From IMG/VR virus record IMGVR_UViG_2916515220_000006: 28,804 bases of DNA; one strand, given 5' to 3'. The stretch comes from an uncultured virus (IMG/VR IMGVR_UViG_2916515220_000006) (taxonomy: Duplodnaviria > Heunggongvirae > Uroviricota > Caudoviricetes). The notes below the pieces were generated by a model. That model saw nothing but the letters and a program-made list of their open reading frames with translations, ran no database searches and was not told the DNA's origin. This document shows positions 2,965 through 18,088 of this stretch, piece by piece; position 1 is the first letter of the stretch, and every line of letters starts with the position of its first letter. A program made the translations under genes and the position numbers.

Positions 2965-3424
2965 TGGTTTCTTTCATCTCAAATATGCGGAAAGGCCGCT
3001 GTTCATATCCCATCGGAATAGGCTCGCTCAGCGTGAAGCCGAGCCACTGTAGCCAGCGCTTGGAAACCTCGTTCCTGTCGTCGACGATGTTGCGGAGCCC
3101 GCTGTATTCCCGCCGCATCTTCGACACCCAGAACCGGGAGCCTTTTAGGAAGTGCCGGTAGTATCGCTCAAGAGCGTCGGAGCCGAGCAACCACGGTGCG
3201 CCGATCCGGCAGACCAGATTGACTGTTCCGCAGCCGAATACGGTTTCCGGCTGGCCATCGAACTCGATGGTGTAAGAAAAATCCGATCTGGCGACCGAGT
3301 AACGGAGCGCTGACAACGGCGAGCGCCCCGTGGCGGCAAACACCTCAGCGGCGTCTGCTTCGCGCATACGGGGCGCAATAGCCAGCAAATGGGCGTCCGT
3401 GGTCTCTATTATGCGAAAGCTCAT
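2957..3424 (-). CDS. T7 gp13-like / GNAT-fold phage protein
   Basis: 155 aa with MREADAAEV, GAPWLLGS and NIVDDRNEVSKRWLQWLGF motifs. Directly after the nozzle gene, with an ATGA overlap at 3421-3424. Confidence 0.75.
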   Translation of the reverse strand: MSFRIIETTDAHLLAIAPRMREADAAEVFAATGRSPLSALRYSVARSDFSYTIEFDGQPETVFGCGTVNLVCRIGAPWLLGSDALERYYRHFLKGSRFWVSKMRREYSGLRNIVDDRNEVSKRWLQWLGFTLSEPIPMGYEQRPFRIFEMKETNV

Positions 3425-6341: not shown

Positions 6342-6371
6342 AAAAAAGCCCGACGAGAAGCCGGGCTTTCT
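6342..6371 (-). terminator. Intrinsic terminator after the capsid/cement genes
   Basis: Minus strand AAAGCCCGG-CTTCTCG-TCGGGC-TTTTTT: GC stem followed by a T6 tract, in the typical post-capsid position. Confidence 0.8.
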
Positions 6372-8336: not shown

Positions 8337-9139
8337 TTAACCTCGTTGGGTTGGAGTGGTTGCGCCGTACATCGCCTCTTCAGGAGACTTTGCAGAGGCG
8401 GCTGGAGTTTCCGACGTGAGGGGCTTGTCATCACTGAGAGCGTTGCCGACACGGGCCAGTAGCCGGAATAGACCGGGATGGTTGCCAATCCCGAGTTCAA
8501 CCAGATCGCGGCGGAACGCATCGTCACCGAACGTTGCAATCACACGATCTGCTTTGAGGACGTTTTCCTTCAGGTGGTCGCCGCCGAAGTCCTTGTCGGT
8601 GCGAATTTCCTTCTGCCAGTCCTCTGTAATTTTCTGGTGTCGCTCGTTGAGAGCGTCGAATTCAGTCTTGCGCTGTTCAGCCAGAACGCCGGCAAGCTTC
8701 GTCGCCTGTGCGTTGGTGAGGCCGATTTCCTTCATGACGGGAGAGGCCTTCTCCAGAAGGGCTTCGTCGAGCTCGATGCCGTCGCCCAGAGCAATGGTGT
8801 ACTTACCGTCTTCGGGAACAGTGTCAGCAGGATCGGCAGCCGCCTTGTTCTTGTCGTCGGCTTCCTGTGGCTTCGTCTTGTCGTGTTCCGCCTTCAGCTT
8901 GGCATTGTCTTCGGCGGACTTGGCGCTATCAGGAACGTACTCCTTCCAGTCGGAAGCGGCGGCCTTGGCCTTATCGCTGTCAGCAGAGCCGTTGTCGCCT
9001 TCGACAGCGGCGGGAACGCCAGAGAGGATCGTGTCAGCGCCCTTGGCAGCCTCTGCCGCGCTATCGCCACCAGCGCCGGCACCGGAAGCCCCTCATCTGC
9101 GGGAGCAAAGGCGACGCTATTCCTCAGAAGATGTTTCAT
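8337..9139 (-). CDS. Capsid scaffolding protein, frameshifted at ~9089-9092
   Basis: MKHLLRNSVAFAPADEG joins, with one extra G, to ASGAGAGGDSAAEAAKG...DTVPEDGKYTIALGDGIELD...KEIGLTNAQA...GIGNHPGLFRLLARVG..LSDD. Directly upstream of the capsid gene. Confidence 0.8.
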
Positions 9140-9410
9140 GCTCTTCCCTCGATCGTTTCTCCGAGCGGTTATGTGCCTCGATCATCATTTGAGCGTAGGC
9201 AGTGGGCTCGACGGTGTTGAGTTGATTGATGATGGTCACGCCGATCACGCGGCGGCCGATGGAAATACCGGTTTCGCCATTGACCACAGGCGCAGCGCTG
9301 TAGACGCCGCACTGTGCAATGATCCACCAGATGAATTCGCGAGCGCGCGGGTGCTCCAGCACGAACTGCGTTGACAGTTCGAGTTCTGTTTCGTCCCTTG
9401 TTTTCGTCAT
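9117..9410 (-). CDS. Bbp19-like phage protein
   Basis: 97 aa between portal and scaffold, with AREFIWWIIAQCGVY...IGRRVIG...PTAYAQMMIEA pattern. Confidence 0.7.
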   Translation of the reverse strand: MTKTRDETELELSTQFVLEHPRAREFIWWIIAQCGVYSAAPVVNGETGISIGRRVIGVTIINQLNTVEPTAYAQMMIEAHNRSEKRSREEHETSSEE

Positions 9411-11646: not shown

Positions 11647-13143
11647 TCAAGAATAGGGGTTGTAATCGTCGCTCTGGGATGAGCCGCCGTAGCTGGTGTC
11701 ACGGCTGTGATTGTAGCGTTCATCGCCGCGTTCCCTTGCCACCACAGGGCGCGCGAAGGTCAGGCCGAGCGCGTCAGCACGGTTTGGAGACGGCAGGCCT
11801 CTCGCCTTCATGTCTTCCTTGCTCTCCAGCTGGAGCTTGCCGTCAACGCGCGCAATCAGTTCCGGGCCGATCAGGTCTTGATAGAGAACGTCGTCCTTCG
11901 GATCGATCGCGCCACCTGTTTTGATCCAGTCGCGCATTCCCTTCCACATCTCGGCACGCTTGTTCAGGCAGCCGCGGTCCACGCTCTTTTCTGCGAAGCT
12001 CACAAGTTGCCATGTGCGGCCGAGCGTGATGCCCGCCGAATAGATGCCTGTTCCATGGCCAAGGTCGATGAAGACCGCATCCGCTTCAAGTTCGTCCTCG
12101 AAGCGCGCCACATGGTTGGCGACCAGGATGTCGTTATCGTTCTTCGGCATGGTCAGCAGCAGCTTCGAGTAAAGCCCCTGTCTGAAGTAGATGACCAGTT
12201 CGTCGTCACCTGTCCAAGCGGGATCAACGCCGATGATTTTCGGAGCGAAGTCATACTGCTCTTTGCGCAGGTGGACTTTCTGGGCAGCGTCCACATCATC
12301 GACCGATATGAACTGCTTTGCTGAAGCCGATGGAAACATGCCGCGCACTCGCACCTTTACGAAATCATGGTCTTCGCCATAGTCCTCGACCCACTGGTCA
12401 AGCTTCTTCTTGTTGGTGCCTGGCACCGACCGGCTATCGATCTGTCGCCTTATCCAGCGCCGACGATGGCGACGGAAACACTCGCGGAATCGCCCGGTGT
12501 TCTGCGTCGGGTTGCCGAAGACAATCCAGATGATGATCGTGTTTTCGTCAGTCAGCGCGCCTTCCGCCACTTCCCAGACGCTATCCGCAATCTTTGAGGC
12601 CTCGTCGAACATCAGGACGATTATCTTGTCCTTGTTGTGCAGACCGGCAAAGGCTTCCGTGTTGTGGGCAGACCACGCGACGAAATCGAGTCGCCACAGG
12701 TCTGAATGCTCCGCGTCTCGCGCCTTGACCGACATGGCCTGCACATCAAACCAGTGCGACGTGATCGATGAGCGGAACCACTTGCCGATTTCCGGCGACG
12801 TCTTCGTTCGCAGCTGGCTTTCAGTGTTTGCGGTGGCGACAATCTTGCAATCAGCAAAGCAGGACATGGCCCAATTTGCGAGCATGCCCATTTCTGCCGA
12901 CTTGCCGATACCGTGACCGCTTGCAACGGCGATCTGCAAAGGCTGGTATCGGTTCTCGCTGTTAAGGTGCTGGCGTATCTCTTCGTTGATATCCGCCTGC
13001 CACTCGCGCGGCCCTTCCATGTCCTTCAGATTGCCCTGACCCCAATCCCACGCGAACAGGGACCATCCTTGCGGGTCGAACTGATATTCAGCGGCGGCGT
13101 CCAGAATGTCTTCATCCGGGTCGCGCTTCTGTGCTGGTATCAT
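11647..13143 (-). CDS. terL: Terminase large subunit
   Basis: Walker A ASGHGIGKS, Walker B LMFDEAS, FGNPT, nuclease IGVDPA and SPNRADAL motifs. Confidence 0.95.
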   Translation of the reverse strand: MIPAQKRDPDEDILDAAAEYQFDPQGWSLFAWDWGQGNLKDMEGPREWQADINEEIRQHLNSENRYQPLQIAVASGHGIGKSAEMGMLANWAMSCFADCKIVATANTESQLRTKTSPEIGKWFRSSITSHWFDVQAMSVKARDAEHSDLWRLDFVAWSAHNTEAFAGLHNKDKIIVLMFDEASKIADSVWEVAEGALTDENTIIIWIVFGNPTQNTGRFRECFRRHRRRWIRRQIDSRSVPGTNKKKLDQWVEDYGEDHDFVKVRVRGMFPSASAKQFISVDDVDAAQKVHLRKEQYDFAPKIIGVDPAWTGDDELVIYFRQGLYSKLLLTMPKNDNDILVANHVARFEDELEADAVFIDLGHGTGIYSAGITLGRTWQLVSFAEKSVDRGCLNKRAEMWKGMRDWIKTGGAIDPKDDVLYQDLIGPELIARVDGKLQLESKEDMKARGLPSPNRADALGLTFARPVVARERGDERYNHSRDTSYGGSSQSDDYNPYS

Positions 13144-13580
13144 TTCTGTTCAGGCTTCCTTGCCTTGGCTCGATTGAGACGCTCAGCGAGCGAGCCGTTG
13201 ACGTTAAGCTCGACTTCCTGCTTGTCGCGCCAATCCTTTGGCTTCCGGTTCTTCAGCCAGAAGATGGCTGCGACCGTATCAGGCGGGTAGTGCTTGGTGA
13301 CTTCGGTCTTCACCACCTGGCCATCAATGACCTTGATATCGACATCAGGATGAGAATAACCGATAGCCCTTTGAAACAGACTGCGCTCGACGGCCTCGTC
13401 CGAAATGTCCTTGCCAACCTTTAAGGACTGACAGAATTCCGGGTACTCTATCTTCCAGCGCTGGATAGTGCGATCAGACACCCCGAAGAATTCGGCAAGC
13501 TGCTTATCCGTAAGCCCCTGCTCGCAGAGCTTTTCAGCCTGTTCCGCATACTCGGGCTTGTACGAGGTCTGACGCGCCAT
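13140..13580 (-). CDS. terS: Terminase small subunit (HTH)
   Basis: Start re-called at MARQTSYKPEY. HTH GLTDKQLAEFFGVSDRTIQRWK and HYPPDTVAAIFWLKNRKP.DWRDKQE. ATGA overlap with terL. Confidence 0.88.
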   Translation of the reverse strand: MARQTSYKPEYAEQAEKLCEQGLTDKQLAEFFGVSDRTIQRWKIEYPEFCQSLKVGKDISDEAVERSLFQRAIGYSHPDVDIKVIDGQVVKTEVTKHYPPDTVAAIFWLKNRKPKDWRDKQEVELNVNGSLAERLNRAKARKPEQK

Positions 13581-13582
13581 GT

Positions 13583-13825
13583 TCAGTAAATCCCGACAAG
13601 GCCGCCTGCGGTTGTTCCTGTAGACCACACGCGACGAATTCGAATGGGGAAGACGCCGGCAGGCATGGTGAAAGTGCCTACCGCGCCTTTGTCGTCAGTG
13701 ATTTTGATATCGCCCTCTGTGCCGATGATCAGCGCACGAGTATCGTTTTCGAGATCGACGGTATCGCTCTTGGCGATGCTGAAGAGACGTCCCGGCTCTG
13801 TGCCGTATTGATTGCGTTCGACCAT
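13583..13825 (-). CDS. Head-spike base protein-like (RcGTA Rcc01079 family)
   Basis: 80 aa beta-rich protein: SDTVDL...RALIIG.EGDI...PAGVFPIRIRRVWSTGTTAGGLVG. Confidence 0.7.
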   Translation of the reverse strand: MVERNQYGTEPGRLFSIAKSDTVDLENDTRALIIGTEGDIKITDDKGAVGTFTMPAGVFPIRIRRVWSTGTTAGGLVGIY

Positions 13826-14709: not shown

Positions 14710-14943
14710 TCAGTCCCATGGGAGGAAAAGAGCGGCCTTGCGCCCGTATGCGTCGCGGTAGCCGGTCACTCTCAACCAAGCCCACCGAAAGAAGCTGTGA
14801 TAATACGGAGCAGGCACAGCGGGCACCCAACCTCTGCCACGGCATTCGTCGCAGTTGCCCGGCCGAAACGTTCCGCGGTGGACCCGATCAGCAAAACCTG
14901 TCCCTGCGCACGTCTCACAGTGCTGCAATACCTCGGCGGTCAT
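14710..14943 (-). CDS. Small protein with DnaJ-type CxxCxGxG zinc-finger repeats
   Basis: CETCAGTG and CDECRGRG. GGAG RBS before the ATG at 14943. Confidence 0.6.
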   Translation of the reverse strand: MTAEVLQHCETCAGTGFADRVHRGTFRPGNCDECRGRGWVPAVPAPYYHSFFRWAWLRVTGYRDAYGRKAALFLPWD

Positions 14944-14982
14944 CGCTCTCTCCATGTGGGCGGGTGAATGGGGTTCAGACGA

Positions 14983-15144
14983 TCAGCGCAGTGGACTACC
15001 CATGAGGCCTTTGCGCGATAAGTAGTCCAGCGCCTTAGCCCGCAATTCTGCGTCTTTCGGCAGCTTGCGGACTAGTTTTCGAACCAGCATCACTAAATCG
15101 TCCACCGTCTGCTCTGCTTCTGTCTTTGGCGTCAGAGCCTTCAT
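14983..15144 (-). CDS. Small hypothetical phage protein (53 aa)
   Basis: MKALTPKTEAEQTVDDLVMLVRKLVRKLPKDAELRAKALDYLSRKGLMGSPLR*, with a strong GGAGGA RBS. Below the ORF-track cutoff. Confidence 0.7.
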   Translation of the reverse strand: MKALTPKTEAEQTVDDLVMLVRKLVRKLPKDAELRAKALDYLSRKGLMGSPLR

Positions 15145-15913
15145 GAAATCCTCCGCCGCTTTGGGCCGGGTCGGCGAAACCCGCTAGGTCACCCGCAGGG
15201 CCGCCCTTTGTCCTAGGCCACTCTCGGAATCGATCAGCCCCACCTTGTTACGGGCGGGGCTGGTGAAATGTACGGGCGCACCATAATCGGCCCCGAAGGG
15301 TGGCAGCCTACCTGGGCTTTCGTCTGCCGTTTAACCGACTAGCGGGACTGTCTTTACCTCAAGATTACATCCCGCTCGGATGAGGACCGCCGCCCGGTCT
15401 CGTCGCTTCGCCTTCCCGGCTCTCACTGACGATCTGATTTGCCCCAGAGGCAGGCTCCCGACGGGCCTCGATCCCGCGACCTCCACCAACTCTGTTTCGA
15501 CGGCGCTCTATCCGACTGAGCTACGGGAGCCTGTCTATCCTCTGGGTTATCCGCAGAAACTACGTCGCTTCACCCTATGGGCTACATGCCGCACGCTCTG
15601 CCGATATACATGCAAGACGGCGAGTTTTTGCGTCGTGATCTCACCGGAAATGTCTTCTGCAGTGACCCTTACCCAAGTCTCCCGCGCTTGGACCGCCTCG
15701 CATTCCGTTGCCCTGTTGGGCGAATAGCTGCCGGGTGTTCGATGGCCATTCCCTACTAACCTGGCTTGGTGGCCACGACTGGCTTCGATCCGCCCGCTGA
15801 GCCTCACCGTCTTTATGCCGCCTCGCGCTTTCGAGCTTCACGCTGGCGGCGAATTTACGCCGCGCCCGGTGTCCCGGTGTTCGAATTCTCCGCGGAGAAG
15901 GGTCGATTGCGGC
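15145..15913 (-). ncRNA. Candidate large multi-domain structured ncRNA (or array of structured RNAs)
   Basis: About 770 nt without a credible ORF in an otherwise gap-free operon. Many nested helices, a C(UUCG)G tetraloop, possible pseudoknots and an embedded tRNA-like domain. Confidence 0.6.
15451..15533 (-). tRNA. Non-canonical tRNA-like element (pseudo-tRNA, Arg-like body)
   Basis: GCTCCCG-TA-GCTC(AGTCGGATA)GAGC-G-CCGTCGA(AACAGAG)TTGGTGG-AGGTC-GCGGG(ATCGAGG)CCCGT-CGGGAGC. No U33, A in place of T54, no encoded CCA. Confidence 0.75.
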
Positions 15914-16528
15914 CTACCGTTCGGCACGCTCCAGAAGCTGCCGGCGGCGTTCGTTGCGCCATTGGGCGTAAGCGAGGTTATCAGCCCTCACTTTTCCCTT
16001 CTGGCCGGCGACTTCTTCGTCTCGCCAGTCCGTGGCGCATTTCTTTGAAGCTACCGTTGTTGATGCGTGTTCTATGTCGATTTGCGCCACGCCGTCCAGC
16101 GAGGTCGTCAACCGGATTTGATGCTTTTGGTTGAGGTTGTCCGCAATCTGTTGACAATACGCCTGAATTCGGCGGTCGAAAGTTCGTCTCGACATGTCGA
16201 TTTTCCGAAGGTAGGCCTCAAGGTACATGCCTTTTCGGATTTTGATGAACGAATATTCGTAAATCATCTTCCGCCCTTCCTCATCGAGGTAGGCGTTTAT
16301 CCAGTCCCAGACCTGATGCATCCGGCTTATCGCTCCTGCCGACGGCGGCGCACGGCGCACGTTATGTTCGCTCTCACCGAACGCACCGACCATCTCGTGC
16401 AGCACCGATGCCATGGCGCCGGTCTTCAGTCCCGGCCCAGCGTCGGCAGGAGAGGCGCGTAGCGTGTGAGCCGCCTCGATGATCTGCGCCCGCACCTGCT
16501 CATATGTCCATTCCGCGAATACCGTCAT
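15914..16528 (-). CDS. Putative late transcription regulator (DUF6362-like, lambda Q position)
   Basis: Start re-called at 16528 (ATGA overlap). WTYEQVRAQIIEAAHTL..PSAGAISRM..WDWI..MSRRTFDRR (HTH-like). Last gene before the late region. Confidence 0.65.
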   Translation of the reverse strand: MTVFAEWTYEQVRAQIIEAAHTLRASPADAGPGLKTGAMASVLHEMVGAFGESEHNVRRAPPSAGAISRMHQVWDWINAYLDEEGRKMIYEYSFIKIRKGMYLEAYLRKIDMSRRTFDRRIQAYCQQIADNLNQKHQIRLTTSLDGVAQIDIEHASTTVASKKCATDWRDEEVAGQKGKVRADNLAYAQWRNERRRQLLERAER

Positions 16529-16953
16529 GCTGCCGCTCCTCGATATGGCCAAAGGCCGAAATGCATTCTCAGGGCTCCAAGGATCTCGTCGCTTGCAGCC
16601 ACTCCGTATTTCCTCGCCGTTGATCGAGCACCACGCCGAACGGCGCTCAAGTCTATTTGATTGAAGTCTGGCACCAGCGACGGCCGGCGCATCAGGTCTG
16701 GATTTGCGGCTAGCAGCCGGGACACCGCTTTGATGACATCGGCATAGAGCTCGCCAGAGTTTCGCGGGTTGCCGGTGATCAGCATCAGGACAAGGCGCAG
16801 ATGATCCTCGCCATGCAGCTGGCCGATCTCGCGCACAGTCGGCTTGCAGAAGCATTCTCGCCCCTTGCGGCTGGTCGGGCTGTGGTGCCGCCAGTCGCGC
16901 AGGATGACGCCGCATTCTCGGGCCACCTTGAAGATGTTGACGGTATGCTTCAC
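16525..16953 (-). CDS. Hypothetical phage protein
   Basis: 142 aa, coupled by 4-nt overlaps on both sides. Confidence 0.7.
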   Translation of the reverse strand: MKHTVNIFKVARECGVILRDWRHHSPTSRKGRECFCKPTVREIGQLHGEDHLRLVLMLITGNPRNSGELYADVIKAVSRLLAANPDLMRRPSLVPDFNQIDLSAVRRGARSTARKYGVAASDEILGALRMHFGLWPYRGAAA

Positions 16954-17882
16954 ACCGCCCCCATGATCTGCTTGAAGCGGGCATCGAGGTCATTGACCTG
17001 ATCCAGCAGCGAAAGCTCGTCTTCGCTCCTGCCGCGTTCTTCGGCTTCAAGTCGCCCCTGTTCGGCCAGCTGGTCGGCGCGCTCGTTACCGGCAACGCCG
17101 TGATGACCTTTCACCCAGCGGACATGAATCTTTCCAAATTTTGGAAACTCTTGCATCTTTTCATCAATGGCTTTCCAGAGGTCGACGTTCATAACGACGC
17201 GGTTCTGTGGCTCGGCGTTTGCTCCGCCCCGCTGCCAGCCTTTTGCCTTCCAGCCAGGCATCCACTCGTTGACGCCTTTGACACAATACTGGCTATCGCA
17301 CCAAATCGTCACTTCTGGCCACTCGGTGATGTGCTTCCATGCCTGCTCTAGGGCATTGAGGAGGCCGGTAAGCTCCATCTGATTGTTTGTGGTATCTGGA
17401 TCACCGCCAAAAGCCGACGCGATTTCTGCCCCATCCTCATAGACGACAACGCCCCATCCACCGACGCCGGGATTAGGAACAGAAGCGCCGTCGCAGAAAA
17501 TGTGAAGGCCCTCGCTAAACTTCTCGGCCGGAAACCTTTCTTTGATGCGCTCTTTGCGATTCCGCTTGTTCCAGTCCTCTTTCGAGAGGTGGCGAACTTC
17601 GCGCTTCGATAAGCCACTTGCGGATTTCATCTTCTTCGCTTTCCCATCGATCGCGGCAGGGATATTCCGCACCAGAATATCCTTTTCGGTGACGGCCTTC
17701 TGGATCATGAAAAGCGTCGAAGTCATGTCGGCGCCCTTATCGGGAAACTTGACGCGGGTGCCGAGCAACTGCTGTGCCATAAATGCCGCCTGTCGAGCGG
17801 ATGCAAAAGCGCGGGTGTCAGCGCCTTGACCCTTGAGATAGTCGCGCAGCGGGTGCAGCGATGGAGGGAAGGTGTATGTCAT
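16950..17882 (-). CDS. rnhA: Ribonuclease HI with a ~120-aa N-terminal extension
   Basis: IFCDGASVPNPGVGGWG, TTNNQMELTG, WCDSQYCVKG..EW..GWK, NVDLWK and WVKGH.G..GNERADQLA: the catalytic D-E-D-D residues are all present. Confidence 0.92.
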   Translation of the reverse strand: MTYTFPPSLHPLRDYLKGQGADTRAFASARQAAFMAQQLLGTRVKFPDKGADMTSTLFMIQKAVTEKDILVRNIPAAIDGKAKKMKSASGLSKREVRHLSKEDWNKRNRKERIKERFPAEKFSEGLHIFCDGASVPNPGVGGWGVVVYEDGAEIASAFGGDPDTTNNQMELTGLLNALEQAWKHITEWPEVTIWCDSQYCVKGVNEWMPGWKAKGWQRGGANAEPQNRVVMNVDLWKAIDEKMQEFPKFGKIHVRWVKGHHGVAGNERADQLAEQGRLEAEERGRSEDELSLLDQVNDLDARFKQIMGAV

Positions 17883-18088
17883 GCCACGCCCCCGTCATTA
17901 TGCTGCACGCCGAGCGCGCATCCAACGTGGCAGCCGCAAAGACCGAGCTTGATGCAGTCGCCGGCGCTCTGGTCCCGTGGCTGGCCGTTCGCAGGACGCG
18001 GGCATTGCGTGTCTTTCAACGTCGCCTCAAGCAACTTGATGCGCCGCGCCAACGCGATACGGGTCTTGATGATTTCGAGCAGGATCAT
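17879..18088 (-). CDS. Small Cys-rich hypothetical protein
   Basis: 69 aa, CPRPAN...CIKLGLCGC; ATGA-coupled at both ends. Confidence 0.6.
   Translation of the reverse strand: MILLEIIKTRIALARRIKLLEATLKDTQCPRPANGQPRDQSAGDCIKLGLCGCHVGCALGVQHNDGGVA

What the first reader, a model, noticed from the sequence alone, without database searches (positions are those of the whole stretch)
15145..15913. Candidate large, ornate phage non-coding RNA at the head of the late operon
Seen: nearly all genes of the minus-strand operon touch or overlap, yet ~770 nt here has no credible ORF and can be folded by eye into consecutive closed domains on the minus strand. D1 is closed by GACCCTT/AAGGGTC (15904-15898 with 15670-15664) and contains GCCGCC/GGCGGC, GCCC-AACA-GGGC, TCCAAG/CTTGGG and an AGUA/GAA loop-E-like motif. 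D2 is closed by GCAGAAGAC/GTTTCTGC (15660-15652 with 15560-15553), with CGGTGAG/CTCGCCG and TTGCATGT/GCATGTAG. D3 is the tRNA-like domain. D4 has TCGTC/GACGA, GACCG/CGGTC, AGCGGGA/TCCCGCT and a three-way junction with a C(UUCG)G loop. A 10-bp hairpin (15262-15235) and one more junction follow. The many G-U pairs work only on the minus strand, which points to RNA-level structure. Known: GOLLD and ROOL are large phage/prophage ncRNAs associated with tRNAs, described mostly from other taxa. Inference: a GOLLD/ROOL-like or new class of late-expressed structured RNA in an alphaproteobacterial podo-prophage. I could not match it to a known family by eye.
Basis: partly seen in the sequence, partly recalled or inferred. 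Interest (0 to 1): 0.88.

Follow-up and report, generated by a model that had tools for sequence, protein, structure and literature searches.

The report
Pseudoknotted leader RNA before phage terminase
Only about 155 bases of the 770-base gap form a conserved, intricately folded RNA, of a type in no RNA catalogue, that sits once per genome ahead of the DNA-packaging genes of Rhizobium-group phages and probably controls read-through into them.

Summary
The ORF-free gap is real, but it is a mosaic, not one 770-nt GOLLD/ROOL-like RNA. Window 15268-15400 (minus strand), plus a 5' hairpin at 15410-15420, matches 28 loci (26 distinct sequences) from Rhizobiales phages and prophages.

The fold has a closing helix P1, hairpins P2 and P3 whose loops kiss, and an arm P4 that ends in a three-way junction (P5, P6 with a UUCG loop). 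The P5 loop also pairs with the P4/P1 junction. Covariation supports it: 94.3% of cells paired against 80.9% in shuffles, and 23 of 36 pairs change on both sides. Cognate loops form 5 or more pairs in 18 of 21 cases, against 6.8% for non-cognate loops.

Rfam 15 has no match. The element occurs once per phage genome, upstream of at least four terminase small-subunit families. In 9 of 26 loci by script (11 counting two by eye) a terminator lies within 160 nt downstream, and in six loci read by eye a ribosome-binding site follows the U-run directly.

The best reading, which is inferred, is a cis-acting leader or antitermination RNA. D2 and D3 lie in a ~305-nt insertion; D3 is a degenerate tRNA-Asp-like element. 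D1 has no support. No transcript data cover the motif.

The parts
15268..15400 (-). Conserved pseudoknotted RNA motif (covariance-model match, 131 model positions): P1-P2-P3-P4(P5,P6)
   Evidence: CM R1 scores 135.7 bits, E 6e-33. It is a single copy in the own genome. Covariation is shown.
15410..15420 (-). P0-like 5' hairpin GCC-GGGAA-GGC. In other loci this is a covarying hairpin flanked by AUUCG...CAACG, just 5' of P1.
   Evidence: Read by eye from the upstream flanks (e.g. GAGGC/GCCUC, GCCC/GGGC, CCUC/GAGG, CCGC/GCGG). Coordinates. No statistics were run on it.
15391..15397 (-). P1 5' strand (CCGGGCG); pairs with 15272-15278
   Evidence: All 8 P1 pairs change on both sides somewhere in A4. 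Example: L088 has UUCGACGUG/CACGUCGAA.
15272..15278 (-). P1 3' strand (CGCCCGU)
15377..15389 (-). P2 hairpin; its loop CCUCA (15381-15385) kisses the P3 loop
   Evidence: 3 of 3 P2 pairs covary. Kissing-loop test.
15341..15376 (-). P3 hairpin (AGCGGGA...UCCCGCU); its loop holds UGAGG (15357-15361), complementary to the P2 loop
   Evidence: 7 of 7 P3 pairs covary. Cognate L2/L3 loops form >=5 Watson-Crick pairs in 18 of 21 distinct loop pairs, against 6.8% of 412 non-cognate pairs and 8.7% of shuffles.
15285..15340 (-). P4 arm: AGUCGG / UUAAAC / P5 (GGCAG..CUGCC) / A / P6 (CCC-UUCG-GGG) / CCGAUU. This is the nearly invariant core.
   Evidence: P5 covaries at 2 of 5 pairs. The lone pair is C-G in 12 and G-C in 12 sequences. 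P4 varies only between G-U and G-C.
15313..15315 (-). Pseudoknot PK1, 5' half (CCA in the P5 loop); pairs with UGG at 15281-15283
   Evidence: The third pair is A-U in 21 and G-C in 5 of 26 sequences, and none is unpaired.
15279..15284 (-). Junction J4/1 (AUGGUG), which holds the PK1 3' half
15235..15262 (-). 10-bp hairpin homologous to the intrinsic terminators that follow the motif in other loci. In this window the U-run is replaced by GAUCGAUUCC.
   Evidence: L038 has the same stem followed by UUUCGUUU. The terminator scan finds no minus-strand terminator here.
15145..15268 (-). 124-nt leader of the 53-aa ORF. It is 98-99% identical at two full-length sites (123 and 122 nt) of the own genome, and a third site shares only its first 42 nt; all three carry tRNA-Met(CAT) instead of the motif.
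   Evidence: In L038/L064 the sequence UUCGCCCAACAGGGCAACGGAA runs straight into CCGGGCGGCGGUCC. There is no other copy in the own genome.
15453..15531 (-). Degenerate tRNA-Asp-like element (D3): 11-nt anticodon loop, T-loop AUCGAGG, no CCA; embedded in an extra helix CCCAGAGG/CCUCUGGG
   Evidence: ARAGORN finds no tRNA. Rfam gives no tRNA hit at E<=10. It is 75% identical to the own tRNA-Asp(GUC). Cloverleaf by MFE.
15703..15913 (-). It holds the palindrome UUCUCCGCGGAGAA (15886-15899) after the upstream stop, and a displaced copy of the P0 hairpin AUUCGCCCAACAGGGCAACG (~15705-15728).
   Evidence: q1-57 travels with the upstream gene allele (L010, L049, L050). q189-224 matches L011, L038 and L064.
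15914..16543 (-). Upstream gene: ~209-aa DUF6362-family protein (the 393-aa ORF 15914-17095 is probably over-extended)
   Evidence: Pfam DUF6362 31.4 bits. Alignment with 8 homologues from other loci: five stand upstream of the motif, L049 duplicates the L041 locus, and L011 and L002 have no motif. Atlas DUF6362 clusters score 0.94-0.97.

Best explanation
SHOWN. Inside the gap, window 15268-15400 (minus strand), plus a small 5' hairpin, is one member of an uncatalogued family of compactly folded phage RNAs. The fold is a four-way junction: P1 closes it, and P2 and P3 are hairpins whose loops form a 5-7 bp kissing interaction. The fourth arm, P4, ends in a three-way junction (P5, P6). The P5 loop pairs with the P4/P1 junction. 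The core is nearly invariant: AGUCGGUUAAACGGC..GUAG..GCCACCC..GGGCCGAYUAYGGU. The peripheral helices covary freely. The element occurs once per phage genome, on the strand of the late genes, upstream of terminase genes of several unrelated families, and only in Rhizobiales phages or prophages among what I searched.

INFERRED. It is transcribed as part of the leader of the packaging/late operon. It acts in cis on transcription elongation, so that RNA polymerase reads through the intrinsic terminator that often follows it (and through internal ones) into the late genes. This would work like HK022 put, Bacillus EAR or Tn916 canT, or serve as the RNA site for a phage factor. The phage proteins nearby differ from locus to locus while the RNA core does not. 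The likeliest partner is therefore a conserved host component such as RNA polymerase.

The rest of the gap is recombinational mosaic: an insertion that carries a decayed tRNA-Asp-like element, a displaced 5' hairpin copy, and a leader shared with sibling prophages.
For: Structure.
- Structure-blind MAFFT alignment A3 (16 sequences): 88.8% of cells paired against 78.0% in shuffles; 17 of 33 pairs change on both sides; 0 of 500 shuffles reach this; slid controls give 29-43%.
- CM alignment A4 (26 distinct sequences): 94.3% against 80.9%; 23 of 36 pairs change on both sides; 0 of 500 shuffles; slid controls 28-40%.
- Pseudoknot pair: A-U in 21, G-C in 5, none unpaired.
- Kissing loops: >=5 Watson-Crick pairs in 18 of 21 cognate pairs, against 28 of 412 non-cognate pairs (6.8%) and 8.7% of shuffles.
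- Strand: one P4 pair is G-U in 19 of 26 sequences, and other G-U pairs occur too. These would be A-C mismatches on the other strand.

Context.
- One copy in each of 5 near-complete viral records and one in the own genome.
- Same-strand terminase or virion genes lie within the fetched downstream flank in 11 of 24 loci, plus an HNH endonuclease in a twelfth. The terS families are phrog_309, 1482, 51 and 641.
- The terL proteins of the window, L048 and RHph_N3_2 are not alignable by BLASTP.
- A terminator-like hairpin with U-run lies within 160 nt downstream in 9 of 26 loci by a perfect-stem script; 7 of them start 5-17 nt after P1. Control windows give 6 of 49. Two more loci (L050, L066) qualify by eye.
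- In six loci read by eye (L009, L037, L038, L043, L066, L115) the U-run is followed directly by GGAG and a start codon, which leaves no room for a separate promoter.
- Transcription-type genes stand upstream. DUF6362 homologues occur in 4 of 15 viral records (one of them weak, L041, E 3.6e-5), in the window, and by eye upstream of the motif in the GTDB loci L008 and L009. Their model best matches sigma region 4, Q21 and AlpA, but only at Z 4-6. NusG-like proteins occur in 3 of 15 records by genome search, and also in L047 by hmmscan.
- A strong internal terminator sits in the window's late operon at 6371-6343(-).
- RNA-only and RNA-plus-protein processive antitermination are established mechanisms (PMC11658703, passages read).
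Against: - No transcript evidence. The RNA runs that I laid cover only 14937-15268, the leader shared with sibling prophages (their loose ends read into the tRNA-Met flank), plus a short piece over the tRNA-like element (15460-15527, with a joint) in one run; none covers the motif.
- In this window the hairpin after the motif has no U-run, and the scan finds no promoter or minus-strand terminator in 14800-16700.
- 15-17 of 26 loci show no terminator within 160 nt.
- In three loci (L045, L047, L087) a terminator-like hairpin with a U-run lies just upstream of the motif. This was read by eye.
- In L040 and L066 another structured module separates the motif from the terminator.
- No single protein family accompanies the motif.
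- The sigma-like fold of DUF6362 is weak: pLDDT 67, Foldseek best E 0.55, Z<8.
- The total terminator count in the late operon equals chance: 18 against 17.6.
- The A/U-rich linker followed by a terminator is also the classic 3' end of a free-standing sRNA.
Confidence: 0.42

Rival explanations
1. A free-standing, stable, trans-acting phage ncRNA. It would be a protein-binding or host-takeover RNA made from its own or an upstream promoter and ended by the terminator. Late genes would be expressed by leaky read-through.
For: The layout is a compact pseudoknotted body, then an A/U-rich linker ((G)GUAnCAUUUCA), then a terminator hairpin with U-tail in 7-9 loci. That resembles an sRNA gene. The motif sits in the slot where sibling prophages carry tRNA genes, and it is neighboured by other structured or tRNA-like modules. 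The core is invariant although the phage proteins differ, which points to a host target. In L045, L047 and L087 a terminator-like hairpin precedes the motif (by eye).
Against: In L009, L040, L074 and L050 the motif begins 1-28 nt after the upstream stop codon, so any promoter would have to lie inside the gene. No conserved promoter is visible in the upstream flanks. There is no expression data.
Confidence: 0.25
2. A riboswitch. The pseudoknotted core would be an aptamer for a small molecule or ion that gates the following terminator.
For: The fold is complex, with invariant junction nucleotides and variable peripheral helices. A terminator starts 5-17 nt after P1 in 7 loci. By eye, the P1 5' strand (CGGGCGG) can also pair with the C-rich 5' strand of the terminator (CCGCCCG in the window). 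I did not test this.
Against: I found the motif only in phage or prophage contexts, and never upstream of cellular metabolic or transport genes. Most loci lack an adjacent terminator, and in L040 and L066 a ~100-nt module intervenes. The terminator does not overlap P1. It matches no Rfam riboswitch; the raiA partial hit scores 16.3 bits against a 101.3-bit cut-off.
Confidence: 0.1
3. One reading: the whole 15145-15913 interval is a single large, ornate, GOLLD/ROOL-like ncRNA of consecutive closed domains.
For: The whole-gap MFE has z -3.79 on the minus strand (20 shuffles). A tRNA-like element lies inside it. The gap could well be transcribed as one leader.
Against: No GOLLD or ROOL hit, or any other, at Rfam gathering or at E<=10. 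Only ~130-155 nt are conserved. D2 and D3 are an indel relative to L038/L064. The 3' 124 nt occur without the rest at other loci. Sub-domain z-scores run from -1.1 to +0.5. The MFE does not use the D1 and D2 closing helices.
Confidence: 0.05
4. A processing or tRNA-mimic element. The cloverleaf-like four-way junction, together with neighbouring tRNA-like modules, would be recognised by RNase P, RNase Z, RNase E or another tRNA-binding host factor. That could separate early from late mRNA or decoy a host enzyme.
For: The four-way junction has an acceptor-like P1 and a D-arm-like P2. tRNA-like sequences lie adjacent in the window and in L047, and true tRNA-Met occupies this slot in sibling loci. 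RHph_N3_2 has a weak YrlA (Y RNA-like) hit in the same gap: 34.9 bits against a cut-off of 69.
Against: The junction linkers and a 6-nt J4/1 differ from tRNA. There is no CCA. The kiss is between P2 and P3, not D-loop to T-loop. There is no tRNA-model hit in 20 loci at E<=0.1.
Confidence: 0.08
5. A DNA-level site (cos/pac, or a binding site for a protein) upstream of the terminase genes, rather than an RNA.
For: Its position just upstream of terS/terL is where cos and pac sites often lie. This rests on general knowledge and was not tested.
Against: Compensatory changes keep the helices, a pseudoknot and a kissing loop intact. Frequent G-U pairs work on one strand only. The element accompanies at least four terS families and non-alignable terL proteins, whereas a packaging site should co-vary with its terminase.
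Confidence: 0.03

Closest known systems
HK022 put RNAs, Bacillus EAR and Tn916 canT (cis-acting RNA elements for processive antitermination)
   Same: All are structured RNAs encoded in a mobile-element or operon transcript upstream of terminators, and put and EAR are described as acting without a protein factor (PMC11658703, passages). Here too the element is phage-borne, on the sense strand, upstream of terminators and of a long operon, with a core that stays constant while the phage proteins vary.
   Different: There is no sequence or model similarity; Rfam gives nothing. The fold is different and larger, with a four-way junction, a kissing loop and a pseudoknot. It sits at the late/packaging operon of alphaproteobacterial phages. 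Its function is untested.
Lambda late leader (Q gene - pR'/qut - 6S RNA - tR' - late genes)
   Same: The order matches: regulator-type gene, then a short leader, then an intrinsic terminator, then late genes whose ribosome-binding site follows at once. The lambda layout is recalled, with Q/qut as described in PMC11658703.
   Different: Lambda's antiterminator acts through a DNA site, and its 6S RNA has no conserved complex fold. Here the RNA itself is the conserved, covarying object. The upstream gene family is not constant.
LoaP leader RNA and pLS20 ConAn1/conAn2 (protein plus RNA antitermination pairs)
   Same: NusG-like paralogues are encoded upstream of the motif in L037, L044, L046 and L047. 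A dedicated protein plus a leader RNA is a known design (conAn: PMC11658703; LoaP: recalled).
   Different: Most carriers, this window included, have no NusG-like gene among those I scanned. No binding was tested.
GOLLD and ROOL RNAs
   Same: Phage or prophage-borne, near tRNA or tRNA-like sequence, of unknown biochemical function. The association with tRNAs is recalled; the abstract of 10.1101/2024.12.08.627333 was seen in the listing.
   Different: About 155 nt rather than ~600-800 nt. No Rfam match. Only one module of the gap is conserved.
raiA motif RNA (RF03072)
   Same: It is the only Rfam model that touches the core: model positions 37-88 align to 15278-15327, including the CC/GG pairing that I call PK1.
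   Different: 16.3 bits against a cut-off of 101.3. The hit recurs only in L040, whose core is identical, and not in 6 other members at E<=10. I treat it as chance or a shared small motif.

Membership tests
GOLLD (Rfam) / ROOL (Rfam) | Match to the family covariance model at or near the gathering score | tested here: not met
   cmscan of the whole window at gathering gives 0 hits. E<=10 on 14900-16200 gives only raiA, the PA5194 thermometer and radC, all weak.
GOLLD / ROOL | A single large (~600-800 nt) multi-domain RNA conserved as a unit | tested here: not met
   Only 15268-15400, plus a short 5' hairpin, is conserved across 28 loci. D2 and D3 are absent from L038/L064. The 3' 124 nt occurs separately.
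GOLLD / ROOL | Prophage location next to tRNA genes (recalled feature) | tested here: inconclusive
   A tRNA-like element, not a callable tRNA, is adjacent. True tRNA-Met is found only in sibling loci that lack the motif. ARAGORN finds no tRNA in 21 motif loci: 18, and L006, L008 and L009.
tRNA gene (for D3, 15453-15531) | Called by tRNA finders; 7-nt anticodon loop; canonical T-loop; CCA or discriminator context | tested here: not met
   ARAGORN finds 0. Rfam gives no tRNA hit at E<=10. By eye, the anticodon loop is 11 nt (GAAACAGAGUU), the T-loop is AUCGAGG, and the 3' end reads UGCC.
raiA motif RNA (RF03072) | Full-length match at or above the 101.3-bit gathering score | tested here: not met
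   16.3 bits over model positions 37-88 of 209. Found in 1 of 7 further members at E<=10.
Processive antiterminator RNAs (put / EAR / canT type) | Encoded in the transcript upstream of the terminators that it suppresses | tested here: inconclusive
   A terminator lies within 160 nt downstream in 9 of 26 loci by script (11 by eye). There is an internal terminator at 6371-6343 in the window's late operon. In the window itself the adjacent hairpin lacks a U-run.
Processive antiterminator RNAs (put / EAR / canT type) | Makes RNA polymerase terminator-resistant in cis | not testable with these tools
   This needs reporter or in-vitro transcription assays.
Processive antiterminator RNAs (put / EAR / canT type) | Homology to a described element | tested here: not met
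   No Rfam family matches. I did not check whether put and canT are in Rfam at all.
Riboswitch | Conserved ligand-binding core with variable periphery | tested here: met
   The P4-P6 core, the junctions and PK1 are nearly invariant, while P1-P3 covary.
Riboswitch | Expression platform that overlaps the aptamer; recurrence upstream of genes tied to a metabolite | tested here: not met
   The terminator starts 5-17 nt after P1 and is missing within 160 nt in 15-17 of 26 loci. Downstream genes are phage packaging genes or small ORFs.
Intrinsic terminator (hairpin 15235-15262) | G+C-rich hairpin followed by a U-run | tested here: not met
   The hairpin is present, but its tail is GAUCGAUUCC and the scan reports no minus-strand terminator. 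The homologous hairpin in L038 does have UUUCGUUU.
DUF6362 (upstream protein) | Pfam PF19889 at or above the 31-bit cut-off | tested here: met
   31.4 bits, E 2.5e-7, for the window ORF. L038 scores 32.2 bits, and L008 27.8 bits, which is below the cut-off. The Atlas's nearest clusters are DUF6362.

The most novel reading that the evidence does not exclude
This is a phage-only RNA class, specific to one host lineage. Its compact fold (four-way junction, 5-7 bp kissing loop and a loop-junction pseudoknot) would bind host RNA polymerase, or another invariant host machine, directly. It would thereby switch on the packaging/late operon without a dedicated protein. That would make it an alphaproteobacterial counterpart of put/EAR, built on an unrelated and more elaborate architecture.

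It would also be one interchangeable cassette among several structured RNA modules that recombine in the pre-terminase slot of Rhizobiales phages. The others are the tRNA-like elements, the 'GGGAAGG...CCUUCCC' module and the A' variant in L011.
Probability: 0.3. Interest if true: 0.75.

Novelty: new variant of a known kind. Interest (0 to 1): 0.62.

Why it matters
Complex RNA folds with invariant cores and several covarying tertiary contacts are rare. They have usually turned out to be riboswitches, ribozymes or RNAs that bind the polymerase or the ribosome.

This one is small enough (~155 nt) for probing and cryo-EM or crystallography. It has built-in genetic handles: two tertiary pairings that can be broken and then restored. 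It also sits at a decision point of the phage cycle, the entry into packaging and late genes.

If it is an RNA-only antiterminator, it would extend that mechanism to Alphaproteobacteria with a new architecture. If it is not, it is a candidate for a new ligand- or protein-binding RNA class. For annotation, the finding also shows that long 'ornate' gaps ahead of terminase genes in rhizobial prophages are mosaics of small RNA cassettes, not single giant RNAs.

Tried and rejected
- Rfam: gathering scan of the window gave 0 hits. E-value scans of the gap, of 20 loci and of 7 loci gave only weak or unrelated hits.
- ARAGORN found no tRNA or tmRNA in the window or in 21 motif loci.
- blastn against 50,697 phage records found only RHph_N3_2, over 80 nt.
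- Family-wide blastn (401 genomes, 400 scored, G291 not scored): 287 of 400 matched. Nearly all of the 150 listed rows were the tRNA-like part hitting real tRNA genes; a further 282 rows were not listed. Only G324 and G082 carried the motif, and G227 and G382 carried fragments.
- Metagenome pattern scan: 118 stretches, 80 fetched. Only 4 were true members, plus one weak 19.6-bit hit (L154) that I dropped.
- Viral looser patterns: of 15 new loci, 8 were accepted and one 16.4-bit hit (L076) was dropped.
- Public RNA runs: the best held 26% of the words or less. The four that I laid (all contigs) cover 14937-15268, and one run also covers a short piece over the tRNA-like element (15460-15527); nothing covers the motif. 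This says nothing about whether the motif is expressed.
- MFE z-scores of the sub-domains were uninformative.
- DUF6362 function: no paper holds the term. Foldseek PDB found nothing at E<=1e-3. VIA-align gave Z<=6.3, mostly sigma region 4. This is a lead only.
- Pfam found nothing for the 'KRGRPRK' upstream proteins.
- Literature searches for a described Rhizobiales phage RNA motif or late antitermination RNA found none. These cover open-access text only.
- Earlier scan notes: nothing at this place or by sequence.
- I considered a phi29-pRNA-like packaging RNA and a cos/pac site. I rejected both because the motif accompanies unrelated terminases.
- I considered hammerhead and purine-riboswitch resemblances by eye. 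I rejected both because the core nucleotides or topology do not fit and Rfam gives no hit.
Full report
**The gap and the first tests.**

The interval 15145-15913 lies on the minus strand. It runs from the stop of ORF 15914-17095 to the ATG of a 53-aa ORF at 14983-15144. The genes downstream are small ORFs, then terS (13140-13628, phrog_309), terL (11647-13143), a T7-type portal and a GP7 capsid protein. The gap therefore does stand at the head of the packaging/late operon.

- Four ORFs inside the gap have no PHROG match.
- Rfam 15 gives no hit at gathering thresholds anywhere in the window. At E<=10 it gives only three weak hits; the best is a partial raiA match of 16.3 bits against a 101.3-bit cut-off.
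- ARAGORN finds no tRNA.
- The whole gap folds better than shuffles on the minus strand (z -3.79, but only 20 shuffles). The plus strand also folds better than shuffles (z -2.76).
The MFE fold does not use the D1 and D2 closures.

**The gap is a mosaic.**

- In the own genome the last 124 nt (15145-15268) recur at 98-99% identity at two sites, and a third site holds their first 42 nt. Each of the three sites has a true tRNA-Met(CAT) just upstream. L002, the one read in full, also has a DUF6362-like gene upstream and the identical 53-aa ORF downstream. None of the three has the motif.
- blastn against 50,697 phage records finds only 80 nt, in Rhizobium phage RHph_N3_2, inside a ~690-nt gene-free gap upstream of its terL.
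- Across 401 genomes of the family (400 scored), 287 match. Nearly all of the listed rows are real tRNA genes that match the tRNA-like D3 at 75%. Only G324 and G082 share the same ~70-80 nt; two further genomes share short fragments.
- D3 (15453-15531) is closest to the genome's own tRNA-Asp(GUC). It has an 11-nt anticodon loop, an altered T-loop and no CCA.
- In the closest relatives (L038, L064) the sequence UUCGCCCAACAGGGCAACGGAA runs straight into CCGGGCGGCGGUCC. In the window about 305 nt separate the two, and this block holds D2, D3 and a substitute hairpin. It is flanked by ~20-nt imperfect direct repeats.
- The first ~57 nt after the upstream stop travel with that gene's allele (L010, L049, L050).

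**The conserved element.**

Exact-pattern scans gave 11 IMG/VR loci and 7 GTDB species genomes. The genomes belong to Mesorhizobium, Rhizobium (two), Fulvimarina, Neorhizobium, Sinorhizobium and Pararhizobium. Folding and aligning these loci showed that the conserved unit is larger than the 75-nt three-way junction. I built a covariance model of 131 positions. It scores the window at 135.7 bits for 15268-15400(-) and finds a single copy in the own genome.

Looser patterns added members:
- 8 from IMG/VR, out of 15 new loci, with one 16-bit hit dropped;
- 4 from metagenomes, out of 80 fetched loci, with one 19.6-bit hit dropped.

In all there are 28 matches and 26 distinct sequences.

**The structure and its support.**

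P1 closes a four-way junction that holds hairpins P2 and P3 and the arm P4. P4 ends in a three-way junction: AGUCGG / UUAAAC / P5 / A / P6 (CCC-UUCG-GGG) / CCGAUU.

- On the structure-blind MAFFT alignment (16 sequences), 88.8% of cells pair against 78.0% in shuffles. 17 of 33 pairs change on both sides. No shuffle out of 500 reaches any measure, and slid registers pair only 29-43%.
- On the model-fitted alignment, which leans towards the structure, the figures are 94.3% against 80.9%, with 23 of 36 pairs changing on both sides.
- All pairs of P1, P2 and P3 covary. The most divergent member, L088, has an entirely different P1: UUCGACGUG/CACGUCGAA.

Two tertiary contacts emerged.
- CCR in the P5 loop pairs with YGG in the P4/P1 junction. 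The variable pair is A-U in 21 and G-C in 5 of 26 sequences, with no exception.
- The P2 and P3 loops are complementary within each sequence. They form >=5 Watson-Crick pairs in 18 of 21 distinct loop pairs, using about a dozen different sequences. The figure is 6.8% for 412 non-cognate combinations and 8.7% for shuffles. In the window these are CCUCA (15381-15385) and UGAGG (15357-15361).

Frequent G-U pairs make the fold specific to the strand of the late genes; one P4 pair is G-U in 19 of 26 sequences. By eye, a further small covarying hairpin (P0, flanked by AUUCG...CAACG) precedes P1 in many loci. In the window one copy abuts the motif (15410-15420). A second, displaced copy sits upstream of the insertion.

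**Context.**

- The motif occurs once in each of five near-complete viral records.
- Same-strand terminase or virion genes lie in the fetched downstream flank in 11 of 24 loci, plus an HNH endonuclease in a twelfth. They belong to four terS PHROG families. The terL proteins of the window, L048 and RHph_N3_2 cannot be aligned by BLASTP. The RNA is therefore not tied to one packaging machine, which argues against a cos/pac site or a pRNA-like role.
- The upstream genes vary. DUF6362 homologues occur in the window, in 4 of 15 viral records (one weak) and, by eye, in the GTDB loci L008 and L009. NusG-like proteins occur in 3 of 15 records by genome search (L037, L044, L046), and in L047 by hmmscan. 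An unannotated basic protein stands upstream in L006, L048, L068 and L074.
- The DUF6362 model (pLDDT 67) resembles sigma region 4, Q21 and AlpA only at Z 4-6.3. That is a lead, not a finding.
- Downstream, a perfect-stem script finds a hairpin with U-run within 160 nt in 9 of 26 loci. Seven of them start 5-17 nt after P1. Control windows give 6 of 49. L050 and L066 add two by eye.
- In six loci read by eye (L009, L037, L038, L043, L066, L115) the U-run is followed at once by GGAG and a start codon. The next gene there can then only be transcribed by read-through.
- In the window the homologous hairpin (15235-15262) has lost the U-run, and no promoter or terminator is predicted nearby.

**Mechanism.**

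What is shown is a compact, pseudoknotted, strand-specific RNA fold with an invariant core, present once per phage ahead of the late genes.

What is inferred is that it acts in cis on transcription read-through into those genes. Established precedents are put, EAR and canT (RNA alone), and nut/N and conAn (RNA plus protein) (PMC11658703, passages read). The core is constant while the neighbouring phage proteins and terminases are not. I therefore favour a conserved host partner such as RNA polymerase.

Points against this reading:
- There is no transcript evidence; the RNA runs that I laid cover only the shared leader (14937-15268) and, in one run, a short piece over the tRNA-like element, not the motif.
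- More than half of the loci lack an adjacent terminator.
- Three loci have a terminator-like hairpin just upstream instead (by eye).
- In some loci other structured modules sit between the motif and the terminator.

These points keep a free-standing ncRNA (0.25) and, less so, a riboswitch (0.10) in play.

**Comparison and novelty.**

The element is not a member of GOLLD, ROOL, raiA or tRNA; in each case a defining feature was tested and not met. It works most like a phage leader or antitermination RNA, but on an unrelated fold. I found no description of it in Rfam 15 or in three full-text searches. Those searches cover open-access papers only.

Three earlier notes of this scan reached similar conclusions for other prophages: a modular late leader with terminator in a Rhizobium-type prophage, a put-like leader in enterobacterial phages, and a raiA-like pseudoknotted phage RNA. 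They are unchecked leads, not support, and they share no sequence with this window.

**Verdict.**

The real object is a ~155-nt RNA motif of a new class inside a recombinational mosaic.

Noticed in passing
L002 1423-1785; L003 and L004 likewise (own genome C1:360594, 3194110, 296485): Three other prophage-like loci of the same genome carry a true tRNA-Met(CAT) in the same slot. L002 and L003 also hold the 124-nt leader at 98-99% identity; L004 holds only its first 42 nt. L002, the one read in full, has a DUF6362-like gene upstream and the identical 53-aa ORF. None of the three has the conserved motif.
   Followed up: partly
window 15398-15702 (-): A ~305-nt insertion relative to L038/L064, flanked by ~20-nt imperfect direct repeats. 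It carries a tRNA-Asp-like element that sits inside an extra 8-bp helix (CCCAGAGG/CCUCUGGG). It is single-copy in the genome, and its origin (recombination or a mobile insertion) is unknown.
   Followed up: partly
L040, L066, L068/L078/L099, L079 just 3' of the motif; L006 ~3140-3190: A second recurrent structured module follows the motif. It is closed by AUCGGGAAGG...CCUUCCCG (~90-110 nt), and some copies have T-arm-like GGUUCG sequences. In L040 and L066 the terminator comes only after this module.
   Followed up: no
L011 (G382, same genus) ~1495-1665: In the same slot there is a different ~170-nt candidate RNA. It has the P0 hairpin (AUUCGCCCAUCAGGGCAACG) and a GCGAGG...CCUCGC closing helix, but not the AGUCGGUUAAAC core. 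The covariance model does not detect it. It may be a sister class ('A-prime').
   Followed up: no
L006 (Rhizobium phage RHph_N3_2) 2585-2762: The phage's gene-free gap also holds a tRNA-like sequence that ends in CCUUCCCACCA; ARAGORN does not call it. Next to it is a weak Y RNA-like (YrlA) hit of 34.9 bits against a cut-off of 69.
   Followed up: no
L048 1643-1680 (-): A match to the abiF RNA motif (38 bits, cut-off 37) lies 20 nt upstream of the conserved motif on the same strand. It takes the place of the P0 hairpin.
   Followed up: no
window 15914-17095 (-) and 16525-16953 (-): The 393-aa ORF is probably over-extended. Homologues are ~205-225 aa, which puts the start near 16543. The overlapping 142-aa ORF 16525-16953 has conserved counterparts in L038 and L049. 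The DUF6362 model resembles sigma region 4 weakly (Z 4-6).
   Followed up: partly
L037 39-548; L047 46-672; viral records G406 8940-9203 and G408 17630-17890: NusG-like (Pfam NusG) proteins are encoded 0.7-2 kb upstream of the motif in a minority of carrier phages.
   Followed up: partly
window 15886-15899 (-): A perfect 14-nt palindrome, UUCUCCGCGGAGAA, sits right after the upstream stop codon. It is conserved together with that gene's allele in L010, L049 and L050.
   Followed up: no
window 6343-6371 (-): A strong intrinsic terminator (12-bp stem plus a U-run) lies inside the late operon, between the head-gene and tail-gene blocks.
   Followed up: no
L045, L047, L087: 10-60 nt upstream of the motif: Terminator-like hairpins with U-runs lie immediately 5' of the motif. 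This is the opposite of the usual order and is unexplained.
   Followed up: no
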